Below are positions 4,920 through 41,397 of a DNA stretch of 64,000 nucleotides, piece by piece. Numbering within the stretch: position 1 is the stretch's first letter; each line of letters begins with the position of its first letter. This DNA comes from Prorocentrum cordatum (taxonomy: Eukaryota). The position numbers and the translations under genes were made by a program. Below the pieces are notes generated by a model. That model did no database searches, was not told where the DNA came from, and saw only the letters and a program-made list of their open reading frames with translations. Location: positions 496,001-560,000 of the forward strand of contig CAUYUJ010000203.1 in assembly GCA_963575745.1 (NCBI GenBank), read 5' to 3'.

Positions 4920-5290
4920 GCCCTCCTGCGGGTCTCCTGGGGCTCTCTCTTGGGCCACCGACAGCGACAACAACGACAACGATCAACGATCAACGATCAA
5001 CGACAACGATCAAGGGCCTCTTGGGGCCCTTGAAATGCCACCTTGGGGCTCTCTTGGGCTATCTTGGGGTCCTCTTGGGCCGTCCTGGGACTGTCTTGGG
5101 GCCTTTGAGGCCTCTTGAGCCGTCTTGGACTGTCGGAAGCCCGGGAAGGCGAGAAGGGCAAGAACGTGACAATCAATGAACAACCCTGGCAATTTGTGTT
5201 CCGCGGCGTCCTCTTAGGGTCCTTTTGAAGCCTGCTTGGGCCATCTTGGAGGTCTGGCCGTCTTGGTAACCATGGCGCCCTGTTGGGGCG
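4920..5290. repeat. degenerate CTTGGG/CCAAG short-unit repeat family (also 9900-10400, 34780-35130, 35750-36130, 36770-37050)
   Basis: Recurrent ggccccaagacggcc / ttggggccgtcttgg motifs in both orientations. Confidence 0.75.
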
Positions 5291-14377: not shown

Positions 14378-14964
14378 TACGTAGCACCGCGGAAATGCGA
14401 ATAAGAGTGAGGGGGCGGTCAACGTTTCACAAATTATACAAAGAGCCCGCCGCAGGCGCCGATTTGTTCGTTACACCAGTGTGGGTAGGTCGGGGGTGGA
14501 TCGCAAATGGGCCGCGTGTAGGTCGCGGGTGTAGAGGGCAGAAAATCCACCCCATAAGAATCACCCCGACAAGCGAAGCCGTTTAGTAAACGCACGCACG
14601 AAACGAATCGAACAGGCCAAGGCTGTTTAGTCAACGCCCAGGGCCGTGTACTAAACGTCAATTGTCGGGTCCGGATGTTTCTGCCTCCCTTGAGGGTGGG
14701 TCGCGGGGTGGGTCGCGGGTGGGTCGCGGGGTGGGTCGCGGGTGGGTCGCGAATGGGTCGCGGATGGGTCGCACGGTGGGTCGCGGGTGGGTCGCAGGGT
14801 GGGTCGCGCGTGAGTCGCGGGTGGGTCGCGGGTGGGTCGCGGGGTGGATAGCCTGTGGGTCGCGGGTTGGATCGCGGGTGGGTCGCTGGGTGGGTCGCGG
14901 GGTGGGTCGCGGGGTGGGTCGCGGGGTGGGTCGCTGGGTGGGTCGCGGGTGGGTCGCGGGTGGG
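14378..14964. repeat. dispersed ~580-bp repeat ending in (GGGTCGCGG[G]T)n, copy 2
   Basis: Homologous to 2305-2876. Confidence 0.9.
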
Positions 14965-15019
14965 ACGACGACGACAACAAGCAACAACAACAACAACAAC
15001 AACAACAATCATTTTACCC

Positions 15020-15830
15020 GAACGCGTGGTGTTCTCCCCAGTGCCAGGGTTTTCATACGACACCAGGCAATACCCCCACTTCGTGGGGGGGCATTACAAG
15101 CTCTACCAAATATCCAAACGACTCTTCGCGACCACCCAAACCCAGCTTCCCGCCCTATGACGTTGGGACACTTCACTTCGTGGCGTGCGGACGACCGTGG
15201 CTACTACACTGGCGTGGGGTACACACCCACAGAACTTGGTCACTTATTCGGGGCGCGCATGTGCCCAGCATGGTGCAATTGTGCCATACAATACATAATA
15301 CAGAGAGACGAATGTGTCCCGCATGGTATTATTTGACAGGGATGATGGCCCTGGCAGGTGCGCAACCGTTGTCGCAGAAGTTCGAAAAAGTTGCTCGCAA
15401 AAGCCCGTTTGACAGAAATGTTTAAAAAGTGTTGGGTTTCCTACGAATCCGCAAGAGCGCGCGGGATGAGATTTTGACATTTTTTTGTTGAAAAACCATT
15501 GGTTTTTTGATGTTTTTATGTTAAAATCGCTCCGAACACTAAGCTTTTGGAAGGATTTCGTCTTGCGCGCGCGAATGTCCACTTTACCTTATTTTTTGCA
15601 AGGGATTCTTGAAATTTGATTATATTAGAACAAGAAATGTCATTTTATAGTGTTTTTTGCAAGGGAAAACGGATTACAACAAAACAACCGGATCTTGATC
15701 ACCTCGAATTACCTGAGGCTTCCTCACGAAAATGATGAAAACGTAGGCTGCGGCCTAGGCGCGGCGGGGGGGGCGCGTGCACCAGGGGGCCCAACAATAA
15801 TTATTCTTTAGAATTAATAATGTTCAACAA
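15020..15830 (-). mobile_element. non-autonomous repeat unit A ('empty' copy), tandem with unit B
   Basis: 15030-15222 matches 15858-16051 and 15310-15834 matches 17503-18030. Lacks the cargo ORF. Flanked by (CAA)n. Confidence 0.85.
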
Positions 15831-17054
15831 CAACTTACTAGCACGTGGGGACACTCCGTTCTCACCAGTGCCAGGGTTTTCATAGGAGGCGGGCAATGCC
15901 CCCACTTTGTGGGGGGGCCGGTTCAAGCTCCACCACATTTCCAAACGACTCTTCGCCACCGCCCACACCCAGCTTCCCGCCCTATGACGTTCGGACACTT
16001 CACTTCGTGGCCTGCGGACGACCTTGGCTACTACACTGGCGCATGGGTACAGTGACTTGTTGTGGTAACATTTTCTGGTCCTACGCTGGCGCAATGCACG
16101 CCTGGTGACGGCCTGGGCGGATGAAGCCGCCGCCTGCACTGAGGAGCTCACCGACGCATACACATCGCACCACTGTCTCAACACTCCTCGGGACACCAAG
16201 ACAGCTTTCCGTCGCATACGCAACACGGCATGCAACGCGTGGTACTTCAGCCCTGGATATACCGCGCGCATGTGGTCACCAAGTGCCGCGTCGAGCTTTT
16301 CAGCCGTGTCATACTGCAAAGGTCCGGAGTCAGGGTGATACTTCACGTACCATTGCCTCAAAACCATACCGCTGACAGCGACGGGAGGGTCGCTCTCCGA
16401 GAGAAGCTGCGAGAGGACCTCCGCGGCGGCCTCGTCGGCGAAGCTCTCCCGATACTGATTGAGTCGAAGACGCTGGCCTATACATTCCTCCACAGCTTGG
16501 GCAGTATTCAATGCCCCCTTGGCGCCCCACTCCGTGCTGAGCCACTTCTGGCATACCCTGGCGTCAGCAGATACAGATAAATGTCCCAGGAGCCACTGCT
16601 TCAAGACGGCCCCGTCAGTAGTCCCCTCGGGCATGTCTGTGCGAATACGTTCTCCATACCAGGTCTCCAGATGGCCAGCGTTCTGCACTTTGACAAGCGT
16701 CTCTTTGGAAGAATACTGCAGTAGCCACGCCGTTGCGACCCTATCTGGCACATATAGTGGTGGATCCAACTGTCGGAGCGCCCCGCATAATTTGAAAGCT
16801 GTATTATACTCGATGCCCAGGTGGCGGATGGCAGAGCCGTGCTGCTCCTCCAGCTCCTTGGCGCTAGAAATACTGACCTTGCCAGGCACAACCCGATACT
16901 TGCCCCACCAAGTCTTGCACGCCTGGTGACTGGCCTGGATACCCTTTGCAACGAGCGCCTGATGCAAATGATACGGGCTGCCGCAGTCAGCCAAGGGAGG
17001 CCGCGACAGCTCTGGGCCATACTGGTCGTCAAGGGCTTTCGCCGACAAAGCCAT
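15801..17054 (-). CDS. intronless protein with five tandem ~60-aa HTH-like repeats (417 aa including a read-through tail)
   Basis: ATG at 17054 (MALSAK), 26 nt after a relict SL. Repeat pattern (S/T/N)A..L...G..+R ... L...L......(V/A)(S/P/D)..(V/A)...W...(Y/W) occurs five times. After about 16150 the frame runs through the element end to TAA at 15801. Confidence 0.8.
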   Translation of the reverse strand: MALSAKALDDQYGPELSRPPLADCGSPYHLHQALVAKGIQASHQACKTWWGKYRVVPGKVSISSAKELEEQHGSAIRHLGIEYNTAFKLCGALRQLDPPLYVPDRVATAWLLQYSSKETLVKVQNAGHLETWYGERIRTDMPEGTTDGAVLKQWLLGHLSVSADARVCQKWLSTEWGAKGALNTAQAVEECIGQRLRLNQYRESFADEAAAEVLSQLLSESDPPVAVSGMVLRQWYVKYHPDSGPLQYDTAEKLDAALGDHMRAVYPGLKYHALHAVLRMRRKAVLVSRGVLRQWCDVYASVSSSVQAAASSAQAVTRRALRQRRTRKCYHNKSLYPCASVVAKVVRRPRSEVSERHRAGSWVWAVAKSRLEMWWSLNRPPHKVGALPASYENPGTGENGVSPRASKLLLNIINSKE

Positions 17055-17165
17055 GACCCATCCAAGAACACAGGCGATACCTTGATCCGAGATGGCTACG
17101 GATGTGACAGTGATCAGTGATTTTGTTCGATGACGTGGTGACGCACGGACTTGTTGTGGTAACAT
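16054..17165. repeat. perfect 18-bp direct repeat GACTTGTTGTGGTAACAT at 16054-16071 and 17148-17165 bracketing the cargo
   Basis: Identical 18-mers read directly from the sequence. Confidence 0.95.
17081..17102 (-). promoter_or_regulatory. relict dinoflagellate spliced leader (DinoSL)
   Basis: Minus strand TCCGTAGCCATCTCGGATCAAG vs DinoSL DCCGTAGCCATTTTGGCTCAAG: 19/22, in sense orientation just 5' of the ORF. Confidence 0.9.
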
Positions 17166-17167
17166 GC

Positions 17168-17209
<42 letters not shown>

Positions 17210-18024
17210 CATGTGTCCCGCATGGTATTTTTTGCAAGGGATTGTGGCCCCTGGCAGGCGCGCGAACGCCGTTGAAAGAGCGTGCGAAAGTAGCTCGCGC
17301 GAGCTCATGTAACATAAATGTTGAAAAACCATTTGTTTTTAAGGATTCGGACAGCGCGCGCGGGTAGAAATTTGGAAAATCCGTGCACGTGTTTTTCGAG
17401 GACCTACGGTGCGATTCGTGCGATTTTATGATACGCGGTGCTGAAATTCTTAAGAAACCCAATGGTGTTTGAAGATTTCGGCGTGCGCGCGCGAAGAAAA
17501 AACGAATGTGTCCCATATGGTATTATTTGACAGGGATGATGGCCCTGGCATGCGCGCAACCGTTGTTGCAGAAGTTCGAAGCACGTGAAAAAGTTGCTCG
17601 CAAGAGCCCGTTTGACAGAAATGTTGAAAAAGTAGTGGGTTTCCTAAGAAATCCGCAAGAGCGCGCGGGATGAATTTTGAAGCTTTTTTTTTGAAAAACC
17701 ATTGGGTTTTTCATGTTTTTATGTTAAAATCGCTACGAAAACTAAGGTTTTGGAAGGATTTCATCTTGCGCGCGCGAGTGTGCACTTCGTGTCATTTTTT
17801 GCAAAGGATTATTGAAGTTTGGTTATGTTAGAACAAGACATGTCATTTTATATTGTTTTTTGACAGGGAAAGCGGGCGTCAACAAAACAACCGGATCCGC
17901 ACTCCCCCGTTTTGCTTGAGACTTCCTCACGGAAATGATGAAAATGTGGCTGCGGCCTAGGCGCGGCGAGGGGGGCGTGCACCAGGGGGCCCAACAATAA
18001 TTATTCTTTAGAAGTAATAATATT

Positions 18025-18230
18025 CAACAACAACAACAACAACCACAACAACAACAACAACAGCAACAACAACAACGACGACGACGACGACAACAGCAAC
18101 AACACCACCAACACCAACACCAACACCAACAACAGCAACCACTACAACAACAACACCACAACCAACACCAACATCAACAACAACAACACTAACAACAACA
18201 ACAACAACCACTACAACAACAACGCAACAG
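18025..18230. repeat. (CAA)n microsatellite
   Basis: Direct reading. Confidence 0.95.
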
Positions 18231-18349
18231 GCATAATTAACACCTCGGATTCCTGATTCAGCCACGCACCCCGGGACAAAGAATGACCGTTCGGCCCCCT
18301 CACCCTGGCATATGCGTACTTGAACATACTCGTGTGTACTATATAGATG

Positions 18350-18790
18350 GTACGGCAGATGTGGTGCAGTATCTATTGTGGAAATCTGTTGTGCAGTAAC
18401 TGTGTGCCAGTATGTGTGGTGCGATCCATGTGAAACAACCTATGCGGAGCAATCTCCGTGGTGCAATATGTGTGGCGCAATGTATGTTGTGCAATCGATG
18501 TGGTGCGCTCTATGTGGTGCAACTGATGTGGAGCACACTACGCGGTGCTATCGATGTGGTGCAATGAATGTGAGGCAATATGCGCGGTGTAACCCTTGTG
18601 GTGCAATCTAGCTGGTGAACATCATGTTGTGCAACCTATGAGGTGCAAGCTATGTGGTGCAATCTCTGTGGCACATTGCAACGCAATCGATGCAGAGAAA
18701 TGCAGAACAATGCGAAACACAACGTAACAATGCAAAACCATGAAAAGCAATGCAAAACACGGCATAGCAATGCAACACAATGCGAAGTGA
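18350..18790. repeat. degenerate TGTGGTGCAATCTA-type minisatellite followed by a TGCAA-rich tract
   Basis: Recurrent tgtggtgcaa units of about 14-15 nt. Confidence 0.8.
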
Positions 18791-18799
18791 TGCAGGCCC

Positions 18800-19022
18800 A
18801 GACGACGGGCGGCAACGAGTCGGCGACGGGGCAGGGAGGGGGCGGCGACAGCGACAACATAGCCGCCAGACCGACCCGCAGGCCAAGACGATGGGCGGCG
18901 ACGAGGCGGCGACGGGGCAGCGACGGCGACAACGCAACCGCCAGACCGACACGCAGGCCACAACGACGGGCGTCGACGAGGCGGCGACGGCGACAACATA
19001 GCCGCCAGACCGACCCGCAGGC
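18800..19022. repeat. ~75-bp tandem repeat x3
   Basis: gacg(a)cgggc..cgacgaggcggcgacgg...gacaaca(t)agccgccagaccgac(c)cgcaggc repeated three times. Confidence 0.85.
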
Positions 19023-19090
19023 ACATTTCTCTTAGGCAAGCAAATATGAAGCCCTAAGTGCAAGCGCTGCTTCAGGGATAAACATAATTT

Positions 19091-19226: not shown

Positions 19227-20700
19227 ATAACATGTGTTCGCAATTGTTTCTGCTTTAACCCTCCCCACCTCATCCCTTTCTGATTCCCCCCTTCCTCCCT
19301 CCCTCACTCCTCTCCTCCATCTCTGCACAATGGCGTCCAACATCTGGATTGCGGTGCGGCCCAAAGCGCGTGAAACGCCTCTGAGAGACGTTTGCCAGGA
19401 CGCTTGGAAGGATGTCTGGGGAGCTCGCAAGCTCGAGAAAGGAGCTTCGCAGGAGCTTCCGAGGAGCTCCGAAGGAGGTGCGGAAAGACTTGTGGCACGC
19501 GTATTGAGAACGAGTAGGAAAACGCTCTCGGGACAAGCTGCACGTTCAAGCAATCTGCTGCGGCGCTGCTTGAGCCGCGCCCGAAGAAAAAAAGAATCAT
19601 AGCGCGAAAAGCGTGAAAAGAGCGAAAAGCAAAAAAGAAGAGACAAAACAAACAAAAAAATAAGATAACTTAAAGATAACATGGATAAGAAAAACTAACG
19701 AAAAACAATACAAAGAGAAAAAAAAGAGAGAAAAATAAAAAGAAAAATTAAGGAAAAAAAGCAAAGCACAAAAGCTCGCCGACTGCGGCGCTGGCGCCAT
19801 GGTTGAAGTTGAGATAGCTGCCACGGCCTACCCTGCGCTGCCGTCTTCTAATCTGCAGGCCCTCCTATCTCTCAGAGAGCTTATCCGGGAATAGATGCCC
19901 CTCCCATCCTCCTCCCATTCTTCACTCCCTCCCACCTCTCGTTCTCCTCCTCCTCCTCCTCCGCCTCCTCCTCCTCCTCCTCCTCCTTTCCTCTCTCCTC
20001 CTCCTCCTCCTCCTCCTCTCTCCTCCTCCTCCCCCTCCTCGCACCTCCTCCGCCCTCCTCCGCCTCCTCCTCCCTCCTCCCTCCTCGTGCTCGCCATCAC
20101 CTCTCCCTGCTCCCATCCGCCTCCTCTCCCTCCTCCCTCCCTCCCTCCCTCCCTCCCTCCCTCCCTCCCTCCCCGCCCTTAAGGCCGGGTCGGGCTGGGT
20201 CGGGATCGGCTGGGCCGGGCCAGGCCGGGCCAGGCCGGGCCCTCTCCATCTCCTCCCTCTCCCTCCTCTCTGCCCTCCCTACCTCCTCCCCCGCTCCTTT
20301 GCGGCGGGTCCGTGCCGACGCATTGTGGCTAGGCGATCGAGGTTGAGCGTCTCCCTTGCGGTTCTGTCTGGTGTCTGAAGCCGGTGCCGCGTCTTTTTGG
20401 CTGGGACCTGCTGTTCGAAGGAGTGGTCCTGGAGGGGGATCGGACGGCCCCGAGAGGACGGGCCTGCGCGTGGTGGATGGGGCCCAGGGTCGACTCAGCA
20501 CACCGTCCCTTGCCGCTCATCCTGACCGCTCTCAGGAAGCCACCGGCCCTCGTCCCATGGGTTTTTCTGAGCCGCTGAGGGGCGAGGGGCAAGCTCTCGA
20601 CGGCGTGCTGGCTCCGTCCCCCCCCCCCTCTGTTCTGTCCTCCTTCCCCTCCCTCCTCTCTCGTCTTCCGCAGCTGTTGGTTCCAGGGAGCCCGCCAGTA

Positions 20701-20870
20701 CAGTCAACCCGCATAATAGGGATGGGCAGCCTTCTCAGGGCACCCTTGCTTCCTTGCCCCTTCGGTGGGTTTTTTGCTGCGCTCCTTGGCCGTGCTCCGC
20801 TCGTGAGCTTCGTTTCTTTGTCCCTGGCCCTTGCATTCTTATCGCGCATCCTTACTGCACGGATTGACTG
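20701..20870. mobile_element. Tc1/mariner(pogo)-type MITE, copy 1
   Basis: TA|CAGTCAACCCG ... CGGATTGACTG|TA gives TIRs plus a TA target duplication. Reverse-complement homolog at 32078-32250. Confidence 0.8.
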
Positions 20871-20922
20871 TAGCAAGGCCCCCCGCCCACTGCCTACACT
20901 ACCCACGCCATCTGGAAGCGGC

Positions 20923-22947
20923 ATGGAAGGGCCTCCTGCCAAGCGGACCAAGTCCACGGAGCAGGAGGTTGGCTCCTCGGTGGAGGTGCAGCAGGATGTA
21001 GTCCTAAAGTTCTGGATGGCGCACAGGCCCAGTATGCGTGCCAGTCTGGGGGCAGCGGCGGCTTTTGAGTACAAGCACAACCCTGGTGGTCCCTGCAAGA
21101 AAACAATTTACGAGAGGTCCGTGAAGCACCAATGGAACCTCATGGAGCCGGCCCAACAGTCGTCCTGGAGGGCCGCGGCGGCAGCAGGCGGCCCACCCCC
21201 GGGTCAGGTTGCCCTCGCTTTCCTGGCCACGCAGAGTGACTCGCCCCCGGAATCTTCGGCCGGTGGCCTAGACGCACAGAGGGGGCCCCAGGCCGCCGCC
21301 CGGGCGGGCGCCTGCTCCGAGGCCGGCCAGAACCAAGACCAGGGTTTCCCGCAAGAGCAGGGCGCAGCCAGCCGGAAGGAGCTCTCGATCGAGCACGGCG
21401 CTTTTGCGGCGCAGTGTCAGGGCTGCGGAGCCACGGGCGTGCAGCTCGTCGTGGGCCAGGGCGTCTTCGCGGAGACCTCCTACTGCAAGGCCTGCTGGGG
21501 CACCTGGAACACCGCCCAGGCCAGCGTGGAGAAGACCTCCCCCCCCTCGGCCGGCGCAGGGCTGCAGCCCGCGAGCTGCGCCGCAGCTCCGGCCGAGGAG
21601 CGCGCGGAGCAGGTGGGGGCGAAGGGGCAGGCCGCAGCCGGCGGTGAGGAGCATGCGCTCGAGCGTGGCGCTTCCCTGGCGCAGTGCCAGGGTTGCGGAG
21701 CCGCGGGCGTGCAGCTCGTCGGGGGCCAGGGCGTCTTCGCGGAGTCCCTCTACTGCGAGGCCTGCTGGGGCGCCTGGAACACTGCCCAGGTCAACGCGGG
21801 GAAGACCTCCCCCCCTGCAGCTGGCGCAGGGCTGCAGCCCGCGAGCTTCGCCGCAGCCCCGGCCGAGGAACACCCGGCGAAGCTGGAGGCGAAGGAGGGG
21901 GCCGCAGCCAGCGGAGAGGCGCTCTCGCTCGAGAACGACGCTGTCGCGGCGCAGTGCAAGGGCTGCGGAGCCGCGGGCGTGCAGCTCGTAGCGGGCCAGG
22001 GCGTCTTCGCGGAGACCTCCTACTGCGAGACCTGCTGGGGCACCTGGAATACCGCCCAGACCAGCGCGGAGAAGGCCCCCCTGCCCCCCGCAGCCAGCGC
22101 AGCGCTGCAGCCGACGAGCTTCGCCGGGCTCTACGAGCCTGCCCAGCAGACGGTCCCGGGCGGCCGCGGAGTCGGACCTGGGCAGGGCACTTGTGCTGGG
22201 TTCGGAGCCAGCGCCTTGCCGACCCTTGCTTGCACGGTGTGCGGCCAGAAGGGGTATGCTCTCGTCGCCACCGCGGGGCCCTCGGGGCTGACGCTCCTGT
22301 GTGGCTCTTGCGGCCCAGCCAGTTCCCTTGGGGGGGGCGCGGTGCCCCAGGCGCAGGCCCGGGCCATGCTGGGTCAGGAACGCGACGCCCAGGCCCGGGT
22401 CTTGCTGCCCGCTGCGAGCGCAGCGACGAGCCCCTCCGGCGAGCTCGGGGCCGGGGGGGGAGCCGTGACGCCGACGCGGAAGGCCGGCGACCCGCTGTTC
22501 CCGGAGTTCGAGCGTGCGCAGGCCCCGGCGCCAGCAGCGGTGGACAAGCGCCGCGTGGACAGGTGGGTGCGGAGGCTCCCAGACAGGAGTCTTCCTTCAG
22601 ACCGGGTTGTGCTGTACTGGGCATACACTCACCCTGTGGGCAGCCCTCTTATGGCCACCGGCAAGTGGTGCCACATCCCGAAGAAGTCCTCCGACCCCAA
22701 GGGAGTGCTGTTGCAATTTGGGCGGAAAAAAGGAGCAGCCCACGTATGGCTTCGCAAGCAGGGCCATGTGCACGTGTTCGCCAGCGCGGGGGCCACGGAC
22801 CAGATCTTGGCCCAGATCGAGGCCTGGACCGTGCCCTGGAACAACGGCAACCCGCCCGTTCCCTGGGCGGCCGGCGGTCAGCCGAGGCTTCCGAGCCTGC
22901 CGCCGTTGCCGCCGGCAGAGTGGTCGCCGCCCCTGGCGTCTGACTGA
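20923..22947 (+). CDS. intronless 674-aa protein: HMG-box-like N-terminus, three 90-aa repeats each with a CxxC-x19-CxxC zinc finger, a fourth degenerate finger, and an unknown C-terminal domain
   Basis: NLS-like PPAKRTK. LKFWMAHRPSMR...SVKHQWNLMEPAQQSSW resembles HMG helices. CQGCGATGVQLVVGQGVFAETSYCKACWGTW recurs with a 270-bp period (about 21381, 21651, 21921). Open for 2025 nt in non-microsatellite sequence. Confidence 0.75.
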   Translation: MEGPPAKRTKSTEQEVGSSVEVQQDVVLKFWMAHRPSMRASLGAAAAFEYKHNPGGPCKKTIYERSVKHQWNLMEPAQQSSWRAAAAAGGPPPGQVALAFLATQSDSPPESSAGGLDAQRGPQAAARAGACSEAGQNQDQGFPQEQGAASRKELSIEHGAFAAQCQGCGATGVQLVVGQGVFAETSYCKACWGTWNTAQASVEKTSPPSAGAGLQPASCAAAPAEERAEQVGAKGQAAAGGEEHALERGASLAQCQGCGAAGVQLVGGQGVFAESLYCEACWGAWNTAQVNAGKTSPPAAGAGLQPASFAAAPAEEHPAKLEAKEGAAASGEALSLENDAVAAQCKGCGAAGVQLVAGQGVFAETSYCETCWGTWNTAQTSAEKAPLPPAASAALQPTSFAGLYEPAQQTVPGGRGVGPGQGTCAGFGASALPTLACTVCGQKGYALVATAGPSGLTLLCGSCGPASSLGGGAVPQAQARAMLGQERDAQARVLLPAASAATSPSGELGAGGGAVTPTRKAGDPLFPEFERAQAPAPAAVDKRRVDRWVRRLPDRSLPSDRVVLYWAYTHPVGSPLMATGKWCHIPKKSSDPKGVLLQFGRKKGAAHVWLRKQGHVHVFASAGATDQILAQIEAWTVPWNNGNPPVPWAAGGQPRLPSLPPLPPAEWSPPLASD

Positions 22948-34348: not shown

Positions 34349-37300
34349 CGGGTCAGCGGGAAGAGGCAGGGAGCGGGATCGAGGGGGAAAGGACAGGAAG
34401 GGGGACGGAGGAGGATGGAGAGGGCGAGCGCAAAGGGAGATGAGCGCTAGAAAACTTGATCGGACAGCAACGGGAAACGCAGATTTTGTCCATTGGACTC
34501 GTGGGGGGAACAGAATGAAAGGATGATGGCGACGGCAAGGCGGCGGATGTCGAGAATGGCAGCGTGTTGGACAAGGAGGGCAGCGAGGGGAGCGCAGAGG
34601 GATAACGAGTAGGAAGACAAGCACGAGGACGAGGAAGAGATGCAGGAGGACGAGTAGGAGGAGGAACGAAGCAGAGGAGGAAAGGGAGGATGAGAGGAAG
34701 AATAACCACAAAGACGCAGAAGGAAAGTAAGGAGCCCGACGAAAAAGGACGTCGAAGAAAAGAGGGGTCCTCGTGATCTTTTGAGGCTGCCCTGGGCTGT
34801 TGGGGCGGTCTGGGGCTATCTTGGGGCACCCTGGGGACGTCTTGGGGGCCTGTCGGGGTCCTCTTGGGGGCTACTGGAGTCTCCTTGGGCTGTCTGGGCA
34901 TGCCTTAGGGTTCCCTGTGGGCTCTCTCAGGCCATCTTGGCGCCCTCTTGGGCTGTCTTGGGCCGTCTTGGGGCACTCTTGGGCAGTCCTGGGGCCTCTT
35001 CGGGCGCTCTTGGGAGCCTCTGGGTGCCTCTTGGGGGCTCCTCGGGGCGCTGTTGGGGTCCCCTGGAGGCCATTGGGGAGCGCTCTTGGGTCGTTTTGAA
35101 TCCTTCGGGAGTGACTCCAAGATAATGCTGGTTCGGAGTCCTCTCCAAATCTCGTTTTCCGAAGCTGTCTCGAGCGAAACGACCGTTGTCCTAGAATCTG
35201 CTAGAGAAGTTCCCGTGCAGCTCGCATCCCTTGGCGAGAGAAATTTGAATTCTACTCCAGAACCAACGGTGCACGATGGAGGCGCTTCCCGTCATCCGCC
35301 ACCATGTCTCCTGGCCTGTTGAGGCGTGGTATGATGCCAAATGCTGTCTTGCAAGGCATCTGTATTCTCATAACAGCCCCCGCGCCACCACTAGCGGACC
35401 GCCGCGTGCATCCCCTGTAATGCTGAGGCCACGATCCCTCGTGCAAAACAGATCCGCGCTCCCCAGGCCAATATCTCTTGTGAAAAATGGTGTGTTTATC
35501 TCCCGAGTTTCAAGACGGCTCAGTCAGGCAACCAAGGCAATCGAGATGGCTCAAATGCGAAGACGACGCCAAAAGATGAAACCAACAAGACCCAATGTGG
35601 CTGCAAGACGGCCGAATAACGTGCTTCCACGAGGGCCACAGAAGGCCACAAAAGGTCACCCTATAGAGTCCGAAGGAAATGCCATTCAAGGTTTTCAAGG
35701 ATGGTTGCATTCTGACGCTTCCGTCAGCTCAGGACGGCCCACTCCAAGATGACCAAACGACGGCCCAAGAATCCCCCAAGAGGGTTCCAAGATGGCCCGC
35801 GAGGACCCCGCGATGGCCCAAGACGCATCCAAGACGACCCAAGAAGGCGCCTGGAGGGAACCCAGGTAGCCTTAGAAGGCCCTTCTACGGCACATCATGG
35901 CGCCAAGACGGCACCACGACGGCGCCAAAACGGCCCCACCACGGCCGCCAGAACCCTTCCCCACAGCCATGAGGGCCCCATGACGGCCCAAGAGAACCTA
36001 ACGACGGCCCAAGGACGCCCAAGACGGCCAAAGAGGGCCCCACGCTTGTCCCGAGGGACCCCCAAGACTGTTCCACAGAAGGCCAAGACAACCCCAAGAC
36101 GGCCCGAATGAGTTCCATAAGAGCTCCTCAAGAAGTGAAGAAGAACGGTGTCACATGTGACGGCCTTCCTCGTCCTCGTTATCCTCCTGCTCTTGCTCCT
36201 GCTGATGCTCCTTGCCAACATCATCATCATCATCATCATCATCAGCAGCAACAACATCATCATCATCATCACCCTCAGAATCCACATAGTCATCACTGTC
36301 CTCATCACAGCTTCTCCAAGCCTGAGGACACGAGGGGTCACACGAGACAACATCCCATTCCCCTCGAACAATCGCAGGCAGCTGGATCTAGCAGGAGATG
36401 AACAGATGGATGTGATATGTGATCGGGTGGTCGGGAGAAGGAATATGTAGCGGGGGTGCGGAAGAGAGGGGATGGGAATGGAAGGATGGGGAAGAGAGGG
36501 GAGGGGATGTATGTTAGCGTTTCGCGCCGTGCGCCTTGGTCCTTCAAATGTCCTACACAGGCGGGATGAGAGAGAGATGCAGAGAGAGAGAGATAGAGAG
36601 AGACCGAGAGAAGAATTGTGTATTACTGTCCCCGCTGTCCATCGCGTCGTTCTCTTCCTCTTCGTTATTATCCCCTTGTTCCTCATCCTTGTTTCTCTTC
36701 CTTGCTCTGGCCCATTCATGTGAATCCTCCCCTGTCTTCTGTCTTCGAAGTTTATCGCAGAGGCTCCTCCTTGGGAGGTCTCTCGAGGGCCTCTCGAAGG
36801 ATTCCTGGAGGCCTCTGGAGGCTTCGTGGGAGCGTTTCGGGAGCCTCTGGGGGCTCCTTGGGACCATCGTGCTGCCAACCGCTGTTTCCCTCAACGACTA
36901 AGTTCGGATGTGGAAAACTCTGTGGGGCATTCTGGCATCGTCTTGAACCGTGTCGCGGGTTCTTCGGGCACTGTCAGGCCGTGTTGGGGCTCTCTTGGGC
37001 CGTCGTGAGGCCTTGTTGGTCGGTCGAGGGGCGATCTACGGGGCCTCTTTGGCGACCTCGGACGCCCGAAGAACCGAAGCAGCGCATGTCCCCGAATCGA
37101 ACCATACAGTGTGTGTTGTTTAGCGCATCCTTTCGGCGCAATGCTGGGAACCTGGCAACAGCGGGCAGACTGCGGCGAGACGCACGGCGCTCATGCCGGA
37201 ACGCACCACGCTGAAAAAGGCGGGGTTGAATTGCAGATTCCAGCACGCACGCGCAGGTACCTCAAGCTGATAATGGCTATACCACGCCAGATACAAAATC

Positions 37301-41060: not shown

Positions 41061-41072
41061 AACAAAAACAGG

Positions 41073-41397
<325 letters not shown>

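What the first reader, a model, noticed from the sequence alone, without database searches (positions are those of the whole stretch)
15020..18025. Head-to-tail 'empty + filled' mobile units; the filled one carries an SL-marked retrogene between 18-bp direct repeats
Seen: two adjacent units share about 200 bp at one end and about 520 bp at the other, and the pair sits in (CAA)n. Unit B has an extra ~1.1-kb cargo bounded by the identical 18-mer GACTTGTTGTGGTAACAT (16054-16071, 17148-17165). The cargo contains a 19/22 DinoSL relic followed by an intronless ORF. Unit B ends hairpin-CGTG-CTAG|T on the ORF strand. Known: dinoflagellates recycle SL-trans-spliced mRNAs into the genome, and Helitrons end in hairpin+CTRR, form tandem arrays and capture genes. 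Inference: a non-autonomous rolling-circle-like vehicle has acquired a processed mRNA at a defined internal site and can now spread it. The 18-mer is either a TPRT target duplication or a cassette recombination site.
Basis: partly seen in the sequence, partly recalled or inferred. Interest (0 to 1): 0.8.

Follow-up and report, generated by a model that had tools for sequence, protein, structure and literature searches.

The report
Gutted Helitron-like transposon in a dinoflagellate
Two neighbouring copies of a very abundant dinoflagellate repeat, one of which still holds the first sixth of the family's own rolling-circle (Helitron-type) transposase gene rather than a captured host message.

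Summary
In detail: two head-to-tail units share a ~195-bp and a ~530-bp arm (87% identity), lie in (CAA)n, and the longer one has an exact 18-mer pair around 1.1 kb that holds the window's only DinoSL relic and an open frame. The reading must be turned round. The frame is not a captured host message: it is the first 321 codons of a ~2,000-codon Rep-helicase (Helitron-like) transposase. A metagenome contig 97% identical to the cargo has the same arm, microsatellite, 18-mer and relic and runs on into the rest of the gene; relatives carry invariant HUH, two-tyrosine and Pif1-type helicase motifs. The window copy ends, without stop codon or poly(A), at a deletion junction next to the second 18-mer, which is part of the 3' arm. 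Other contigs show other breakpoints. The arms are very high-copy in public runs, the cargo far rarer. Unit B is thus most likely an internally deleted copy of the family's autonomous element and unit A a shorter, diverged relative. The CTAG end is not shared, no terminal inverted repeats were found, and exact ends stay undefined. The relic and a precisely absent 94-nt intron point to an RNA step in the transposase gene's past.

The parts
14968..15009 (.). (CAA)n microsatellite on the left of the pair, preceded by (GAC)3-4
   Evidence: family D4
15010..15834 (-). Unit A: short non-coding family member (head, stub of sub-repeat 1, sub-repeats 2 and 3, three CAA); no 18-mer, no (GAC)n, no gene piece
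15073..15089 (.). Conserved 7-bp-stem hairpin CCCCCAC-TTC-GTGGGGG in the head of unit A
   Evidence: (fold of the last 90 nt of the sense strand)
15835..18024 (-). Unit B: internally deleted copy of the Rep-helicase-bearing element
15858..16078 (-). Head of unit B = 3' arm on the gene's strand; its inner edge includes the first 18-mer and TTTCTGG
   Evidence: L004 100% identical over 16020-16078; four X2 contigs leave the window at 16078 into L004-like sequence (table 7)
15899..15915 (.). Same hairpin in unit B (loop TTT)
16054..16071 (.). 18-mer copy 1, part of the 3' arm
16079..16091 (-). Deletion junction: likeness to the full gene (L007) ends at about 16092, likeness to the 3' region (L004) begins at 16078 (weaker likeness to about 16086)
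16092..17054 (-). First 321 codons of the Rep-helicase gene (N-terminal array of three-helix modules); open, 31 of 963 bases differ from L007
16476..16481 (-). Site where L007 has a 94-nt GC-AG intron and the window has none (ATAGGC once)
17081..17102 (-). DinoSL relic, 19 of 22; identical letters in L007
17103..17147 (-). 45-nt spacer between 18-mer and relic, shared with L007
17148..17165 (.). 18-mer copy 2, upstream of the gene; also in L007 and read through (MLPQQV) by 6 database proteins
17168..17205 (.). (GAC)12.7 microsatellite, a regular inner part of the family
   Evidence: loose ends (X1 at 15206, X10 at 17479); L007 61-106
17205..17501 (-). Sub-repeat 1 of the tail (only a stub in unit A); its gene-proximal part is also upstream of the gene in L007 and P0033
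17502..18024 (-). Tail of unit B (sub-repeats 2 and 3) = 5' arm on the gene's strand, ends in an AT palindrome AATAATTATT
   Evidence: (I14)
18025..18223 (.). (CAA)66 impure microsatellite on the right, with a (GAC)5 island

Best explanation
Unit B is a dead, internally deleted copy of an autonomous Helitron-like (Rep-helicase) transposon of a dinoflagellate. In the window a deletion joined codon ~321 to a point ~15-20 nt before the 3' 18-mer. Unit A and the far more numerous short copies are further-deleted, non-coding members that depend on the enzyme of intact copies, as in other Helitron families. Shown: identity of the gene piece, its truncation, shared arms and 18-mers in independent contigs, high copy number of the arms, other breakpoints. 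Inferred: that the arms are the ends used in transposition, the rolling-circle mechanism itself, and that short copies arose by deletion.
For: (1) Cargo = transposase 5' end: L007 matches window 17296-16476 and 16481-16092 at 94-97%, has the same sub-repeat, (GTC)n, 18-mer, spacer and identical relic, and its frame stays open for 937 codons to the locus end. (2) That frame is colinear with P0063 (49% over 770 residues; window piece 46%, E 1e-80), which overlaps P0064 (57% over 819). (3) Rep-helicase: 18 of 26 aligned relatives hit Helitron_like_N (best 2.2e-9), 25 of 26 AAA_30; invariant EYQGRGTPHWH, YINGY..K, Walker A and B; profile hits Pif1 (3.5e-14) and the helicase part of Helraiser 7lcc (2.4e-12). 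(4) Truncation: homologues run ~120+ residues past the window's end; no stop, no poly(A). (5) 3' arm: L004 and four X2 contigs show 3' region + CCAGAAA + 18-mer + head. (6) Other breakpoints: P0009 (cluster of 9) joins residues 1-153 to L004 1858-1944 (E 4.5e-11); P0037 joins 1-128 to L004 ~890-921. (7) Arms high-copy: 98,145 contig pieces in X1; summed depth 26,000-345,000 on arms against 470-2,800 on cargo; variant-bearing contigs 58-123 against 3-20. (8) Unit B's arm pieces are 94-100% like L007/L004 but only 87% like unit A. (9) pN/pS about 0.8 against L007.
Against: No single contig shows the whole gene with both arms; L007 holds only ~220 nt upstream and L004 only 59 nt of the head. The ends are not defined: they abut microsatellite, the last 10-20 nt differ in 4 of 4 copies seen, no terminal or subterminal inverted repeat exceeds chance (best score 17 and 16 against shuffled 95th percentile 20 and 19), and 5'-TC/CTRR-3' is not shared. 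Two of 21 related proteins (P0047, P0057) have another upstream sequence up to ~3-18 nt before the relic, so the gene also sits in another context. A relic of a spliced leader and a precisely missing intron are marks of cDNA, which a pure DNA transposon need not have. Contig depth is not copy number (tool's own warning). The link of L004's gene to the element rests on short protein tails. The commonest short form has a different linker (TTCAGGGCCCCGCGGCC) and no 18-mer, so its descent by deletion is inferred.
Confidence: 0.65

Rival explanations
1. Retro-insertion: cDNA of a spliced-leader-bearing transposase message was inserted by a retrotransposon's machinery into a pre-existing non-coding unit between head and (GAC)n; the 18-mer is the target duplication; the composite was then copied as DNA and later truncated in the window.
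For: DinoSL relic before the frame in window and L007 and before L004's gene; exact 18-bp direct repeat of a length usual for such duplications; intron absent from the window copy; the gene occurs in at least one other upstream context (P0047, P0057).
Against: 45 nt lie between the 18-mer and the relic; only AAAA stands at the 3' side; L007 has an intron yet the same flanks and the same relic; the insert would have to span two genes, each with its own relic; the commonest short form lacks the 18-mer (loose ends at 15206 and 17479); head-tail junctions are of several kinds, as expected from repeated deletions.
Confidence: 0.2
2. The units are satellite-like tandem DNA with (CAA)n linkers and no mobility of their own; a transposase gene fragment got embedded by chance and was carried along by array turnover.
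For: Tail followed by (CAA)n and then another head in the window and in contigs (148 and 75 X1 contigs end in the microsatellite at 15834/15835; X15 contigs read (CAA)n-TCA...); ends variable; no inverted repeats; inner tandem sub-repeats.
Against: In the window the array has only two units, 12% apart, with unrelated flanks; the embedded gene is exactly the kind of enzyme that moves such units, and it recurs with the same arms in independent contigs.
Confidence: 0.08
3. One reading: a non-autonomous rolling-circle vehicle captured a processed host mRNA as a cassette between 18-mers and can now spread it.
For: Relic, missing intron and 18-mer pair.
Against: The frame is the N-terminus of a Rep-helicase, colinear with full-length proteins, and is cut off; no other kind of gene was seen between two 18-mers; L004's different gene lies upstream of one 18-mer only and is linked to the transposase gene by chimeric contigs.
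Confidence: 0.03

Closest known systems
Helitron2-like element of Symbiodinium microadriaticum (Heringer and Kuhn 2022, PMC8788227; passages read) and the HLE2 group (HELIANO paper PMC11417382; passages read)
   Same: Rep-helicase with HUH and Pif1-type helicase, no AP endonuclease (0 of 26); motif 2 reads RG-T-PHWH, nearer the Helentron 'S' than the Helitron 'L' form given in PMC4067079; distant Symbiodinium relatives carry UCH, a domain the HELIANO paper finds in HLE2.
   Different: 28-34% identity only to the Symbiodinium proteins; long N-terminal array of three-helix modules instead of UCH; DUF6570, the HLE2 marker named in PMC11417382, hit 0 of 26; no short terminal inverted repeats found; DinoSL relic in the 5' leader.
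Helentron-associated interspersed elements (HINE, DINE-1; PMC4067079 and PMC7492417, passages read)
   Same: Very numerous non-coding derivatives that share ends with a Rep-helicase element; an inner microsatellite (there often GTCY, here GTC on the gene strand); a variable number of central tandem repeats; a palindrome near one end; satellite-like short arrays.
   Different: No subterminal inverted repeats found; flanks are (CAA)n rather than T-rich DNA, so a TT target can be neither shown nor excluded; hairpin lies ~60-75 nt from the end.
DinoSL-relic retrogenes of dinoflagellates (PMC5585692 and PMC6050394: search listing and abstracts only)
   Same: 22-nt leader relic just upstream of the start codon; intron absent relative to a close paralogue.
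   Different: The gene is a transposase inside a repeat family; the relic is inherited by DNA copying (identical in L007); no poly(A); no array of truncated older relics.
Gene capture by canonical Helitrons (maize, bats; recalled, no paper read here)
   Same: A gene piece inside a non-autonomous rolling-circle-type unit.
   Different: The piece is the element's own enzyme gene left over after deletion, not host DNA.

Membership tests
Helitron-like elements (Rep-helicase rolling-circle transposons) | HUH endonuclease motif in the encoded protein | tested here: met
   EYQGRGTPHWH invariant in 26 of 26 aligned relatives; present in P0063, which is colinear with the window frame; 18 of 26 hit Helitron_like_N, one (P0092) above Pfam's cut-off. 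The window copy itself has lost this part.
Helitron-like elements (Rep-helicase rolling-circle transposons) | Two catalytic tyrosines (Y-x3-Y) | tested here: met
   YINGY..K, Y225 and Y229 invariant; in relatives, not in the window copy.
Helitron-like elements (Rep-helicase rolling-circle transposons) | Pif1/RecD-type SF1 helicase C-terminal to Rep | tested here: met
   AAA_30 in 25 of 26; Walker A and B conserved; profile hits Pif1 3.5e-14, RecD 1.7e-14, Helraiser 2.4e-12.
Canonical Helitron (HLE1) | 5'-TC ... CTRR-3' ends, hairpin ~11 nt from the 3' end, insertion between A and T | tested here: not met
   CTAG in 1 of 4 end variants; conserved hairpin is ~60-75 nt from the end; flanks are (TTG)n on the gene strand.
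HLE2 (Helitron2 / Helentron) | Short terminal or subterminal inverted repeats, TT target, no target duplication | tested here: inconclusive
   No inverted repeat above chance between the outer 150 nt of either unit, but only two copies and uncertain ends; TT is present in (TTG)n flanks, which proves nothing.
Helentron in the strict sense | AP endonuclease domain after the helicase | tested here: not met
   No such Pfam family in 26 of 26 relatives nor in P0064, which reaches its C-terminus.
HINE-type non-autonomous derivatives | Ends shared with an autonomous partner; inner microsatellite; central tandem repeats; palindrome near an end | tested here: met
   Shared arm pieces with L007 and L004; (GAC)n; sub-repeats; hairpin. 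Subterminal inverted repeats, also part of the published definition, were not found.
Dinoflagellate retrogene | DinoSL relic upstream of the frame | tested here: met
   19 of 22 at 17081-17102, 0 of 100 shuffles.
Dinoflagellate retrogene | Intron-less relative to a parent, poly(A) remnant, private target duplication | tested here: inconclusive
   Intron precisely absent; no poly(A) and 3' end deleted; 18-mer pair present but the upstream copy is shared with at least 7 other copies.
Helitron gene capture | Cargo is host DNA unrelated to the transposase | tested here: not met
   Cargo is the transposase N-terminus.
SINE-type retroposon | tRNA-, 5S- or 7SL-derived head | tested here: not met
   No Rfam match at E up to 0.1 and no tRNA in 14400-18700.

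The most novel reading that the evidence does not exclude
The family has a retro step in its life: spliced-leader-capped, spliced transposase messages are copied back into DNA and land in (or convert) non-coding arm units at the 18-mer, so that worn-out vehicles are re-armed with a fresh transposase gene. The 18-mer would then be a target duplication or a recombination site, and the intron-less window copy a product of that route.
Probability: 0.15. Interest if true: 0.8.

Novelty: new variant of a known kind. Interest (0 to 1): 0.5.

Why it matters
Helitron-like elements are almost undescribed in dinoflagellates: of the papers searched, one reports a single Symbiodinium element as a first (PMC8788227), a 2024 review of dinoflagellate genomics does not use the word, and the HELIANO survey's main text names no dinoflagellate. 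Here is a family with a recognisable autonomous gene, an unusual N-terminal array of DNA-binding-like modules, and non-coding derivatives so numerous that they are found in marine sequencing runs of 13 studies. It gives a handle on what fills these giant genomes, and the leader relic inside a DNA transposon ties rolling-circle elements to the mRNA recycling typical of dinoflagellates. For annotation it is a warning: a leader relic plus an intron-less frame inside a repeat need not be a captured host gene.

Tried and rejected
No whole genome is held for the window, so empty and filled copies could not be tabulated. The 18-mer scan of metagenome contigs gave 10 loci, 8 of them unrelated chance matches. 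The head 22-mer in prokaryote genomes hit one bacterial contig by chance (23 bases only). Three scans of viral contigs found nothing. Earlier notes of this scan hold no look-alike of head, tail or L007's protein. Read laying showed only the best-supported joints and loose ends; no contig bridging 16071 to 17166 (a one-18-mer form) and none bridging the window's own deletion junction was listed, which proves nothing either way. RNA-run contigs (X15) lie on arms and cargo but cannot show transcription or splicing; none crosses the intron site by 31 nt. phmmer of P0064 against solved structures gave nothing below E 0.4. The N-terminal model (pLDDT 79.9) had no Foldseek match at E up to 0.001; the wide search gave Myb, ArgR/Fur winged-helix, SANT and Slx4 C-terminal domains at Z 3.5-5.1, below what the tool calls meaningful: a lead only. 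L004's 331-residue gene has no Pfam family and no Atlas hit of 0.9 or more. A second structure job (Rep-helicase relative P0067) was still unfinished, so no fold comparison with Helraiser was made. Other long frames of the window gave no family of note.
Full report
OBSERVATION. The two units are real. Window 15031-15223 matches 15858-16051 at 87.7% (195 columns) and 15308-15834 matches 17502-18034 at 86.6% (537 columns); nothing else in the 64 kb resembles them. The 18-mer occurs exactly twice, at 16054 and 17148, even with three mismatches allowed, and 0 of 100 shuffles give two. The DinoSL relic is at 17081-17102 on the minus strand, 19 of 22, the only match in the window, with 0 of 100 shuffles giving any. 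The consensus used was recalled and then found as a string in 28 papers. (CAA)n lies at 14968-15009 and 18025-18223, with three CAA between the units. The stretch private to unit B is 1,450 bp, because besides the cargo it has a (GAC)12.7 run (17168-17205) and one extra ~297-bp sub-repeat of the tail. The frame that starts at 17054 has no stop codon in the cargo and reads on to 15801. The CTAG end is private to unit B (below).

WHAT THE CARGO IS. The frame has 29 relatives at E up to 0.001 among 4,920 candidates, and no Pfam family reaches its cut-off. Aligned with longer relatives, it follows them to '...SSAQAV' and then departs, while they go on for 120 or more residues. A scan of metagenome contigs with the 18-mer gave 10 loci, two of them related. 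L007, read on the gene's strand, matches window 17296-16476 and 16481-16092 at 94-97%. It has the same tail sub-repeat, (GTC)n, 18-mer, 45-nt spacer and a letter-identical relic. Its frame then stays open for 937 codons to the end of the locus.

That frame is colinear with P0063, 1,446 residues (49% identity over 770 residues; the window piece alone 46%, E 1e-80). P0063 overlaps P0064 (57% over 819 residues), so the whole protein has about 2,040 residues. In an alignment of 26 relatives the motifs EYQGRGTPHWH (HUH), YINGY..K (two tyrosines), Walker A and Walker B are invariant or nearly so. Eighteen of the 26 hit Helitron_like_N (best 2.2e-9) and 25 of 26 hit AAA_30. The profile finds Pif1, RecD and the helicase part of the bat Helitron transposase. 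The HUH motif fits the published pattern '(V/I)ExQxRG(S/L)(P/L)HxH' (PMC4067079, passage). The cargo is therefore the first 321 codons, about one sixth, of a Rep-helicase gene.

A model of this piece (pLDDT 79.9) shows five ~60-residue three-helix modules. Its weak fold matches are all DNA-binding helix-turn-helix types, which is a lead only. The family is large: 602 representatives at E up to 0.001 and 395 at 1e-10 among 1.84 billion.

WHERE IT ENDS, AND THE 18-MERS. Likeness to L007 stops at about 16092. L004 is 100% identical to window 16020-16078, that is the inner end of the head, the 18-mer and TTTCTGG, and then continues with quite different sequence: a 3' region, microsatellites, a 331-codon gene of unknown family and its own leader relic. 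Four contigs of run X2 leave the window at 16078 into the same L004-like sequence (table 7). So the 18-mer beside the head is part of the arm, and 16079-16091 is a deletion junction.

The upstream 18-mer is likewise inherited. L007 has it, and 6 of the 21 related database proteins that I read (P0004, P0033, P0042, P0043, P0045, P0058) translate straight through (GTC)n and the 18-mer into the gene. Other breakpoints exist. P0009, the representative of nine, joins residues 1-153 to L004 1858-1944 (E 4.5e-11). P0037, 99% like the window over 128 residues, joins to L004 near 890-921. P0043 follows L007 about 30 nt further than the window before it departs. These chimeras also tie L004's gene and 3' region to the same element as the transposase gene.

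THE ARMS. Laid on the window at 85% likeness or more, Logan contigs of four runs pile up on head and tail. In X1, 98,145 pieces were laid, with summed depth of 26,000-345,000 per bin on the arms against 470-2,800 on the cargo. X2, X10 and the RNA run X15 show the same contrast. Depth of contigs is not copy number, but the family is clearly numerous and the gene-bearing form rare.

Twenty of the 24 listed runs, from 13 studies and mostly marine metagenomes, hold part of the stretch. The commonest short form joins the head at 15206 to TTCAGGGCCCCGCGGCC(GAC)n and then the tail, with no 18-mer (31 X1 contigs, one X10 contig). Unit A has yet another junction. Heads are usually preceded, and tails followed, by (CAA)n (75 and 148 X1 contigs). 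(CAA)n occurs nowhere else in the window, although 30-odd other microsatellites do, so it goes with the family.

Unit B's arm pieces are 94-100% like L007 and L004 but 87% like unit A, so A and B are different family members side by side, not an empty and a filled version of one unit. The tail is two (A) or three (B) degenerate sub-repeats. A 7-bp-stem hairpin, CCCCCAC-NNN-GTGGGGG, is kept in both heads. The outermost 10-20 nt differ in all four left ends seen, and CTAG occurs in one of them. No inverted repeat between the ends exceeds chance. There is no tRNA or Rfam match.

RELIC AND INTRON. L007 has a 94-nt AT-rich GC-AG intron exactly where the window reads ECIG|QRL; the hexamer ATAGGC stands at both intron borders and once in the window. 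Of the 21 related proteins read, 10 end in read-through of this intron, 5 read across the site without it, 5 stop earlier and 1 starts later. Because window and L007 share the non-mRNA sequence upstream and the same three relic mismatches, the relic dates from one old event and has since been copied as DNA. The intron difference is then either a later gain by insertion, which the 6-nt repeat would suit, or a loss by conversion with cDNA. I cannot tell which. Against L007 the window piece differs at 31 of 963 bases, in 8 synonymous and 20 non-synonymous codons, pN/pS about 0.8, as expected of copies without constraint.

HOW IT MOST LIKELY WORKS. Intact copies make a Rep-helicase that nicks and unwinds one strand at the arms and moves the element by a rolling-circle route. 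This step is inferred from the protein family, not shown here. Deleted copies that keep the arms are moved in trans and outnumber the parent. Unit B is such a copy, caught at an early stage with one sixth of the gene left; unit A is a later stage.

Three rivals remain. (a) A transposase cDNA was inserted into a non-coding unit with the 18-mer as target duplication (0.2). The relic, the 18-bp length and a second upstream context (P0047, P0057) speak for it. The 45-nt spacer, the lack of poly(A), the intron in L007, the two-gene span and the missing 18-mer in the common short form speak against it. (b) The units are satellite DNA with a chance passenger (0.08).

COMPARISON. By protein the family belongs with Helitron-like elements, nearest the HLE2 side: no AP endonuclease, a threonine where Helentrons have serine in motif 2, and distant Symbiodinium relatives with UCH. 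By structure the short copies resemble Helentron-associated interspersed elements, with an inner microsatellite, central tandem repeats, a palindrome and huge numbers. Defining end features of either group were not met (canonical Helitron ends) or not demonstrable (HLE2 inverted repeats, TT target). I therefore file it as a Helitron-like family of uncertain subgroup. The N-terminal module array, the leader relic and the (CAA)n association are its own.

LIMITS. There was no genome, only two informative outside contigs (both from one sample), contig-level read data, and protein tails standing in for DNA junctions. Supplements of the cited papers were not opened. I tested neither.

Noticed in passing
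L007:797-890: 94-nt AT-rich GC-AG intron in the transposase gene, bordered by a 6-nt direct repeat ATAGGC that stands once at the intron-less site of the window (16476-16481): looks like an insertion with a target duplication, as introner elements make, but direction of change is open.
   Followed up: partly
L004:419-1496: Second gene with its own DinoSL relic (20 of 22) and a 331-codon frame of no known family, upstream of the 3' arm; linked to the transposase gene by chimeric database proteins (P0009, P0037).
   Followed up: partly
window 14694-14964 and 2693-2871: G-rich 11/12-nt satellite GGGTGGGTCGC(G), 24 and 15 copies, the first directly left of the (GAC)/(CAA) run that borders unit A.
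   Followed up: no
window 34930-35040 and 5042-5103; L004:150-240: Tandem CTTGGGG-type repeats (31-nt unit in the window) resemble the stretch upstream of L004's gene and, in translation, the alternative upstream of the transposase copies P0047 and P0057.
   Followed up: partly
window 18415-18671 and 18821-19034: 14-nt (TGTGGTGCAATCTA, 18 copies) and 75-nt tandem repeats just right of the (CAA)n.
   Followed up: no
window 21355-22126: 270-bp tandem repeat, 2.8 copies at 83%, inside an 866-codon open frame (20347-22947) with only weak Pfam hits (DUF7564, DnaJ cysteine-rich domain).
   Followed up: partly
window 41072-41397: Very pure (GTA)109 microsatellite (97% matches); the window holds more than 30 long microsatellites of many motifs.
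   Followed up: no
window 16092-17054 (protein P0002): The transposase N-terminus is an array of five ~60-residue three-helix modules with a conserved W..KY(R/H) signature; more modules follow in full-length relatives. An array of DNA-binding-like modules beside arrays of sub-repeats in the arms invites a binding test.
   Followed up: partly
window 18070-18095 and 14958-14970: Short (GAC)n islands inside the flanking (CAA)n on both sides, the same two motifs that the element carries inside and at its ends; possibly remains of further eroded units.
   Followed up: no
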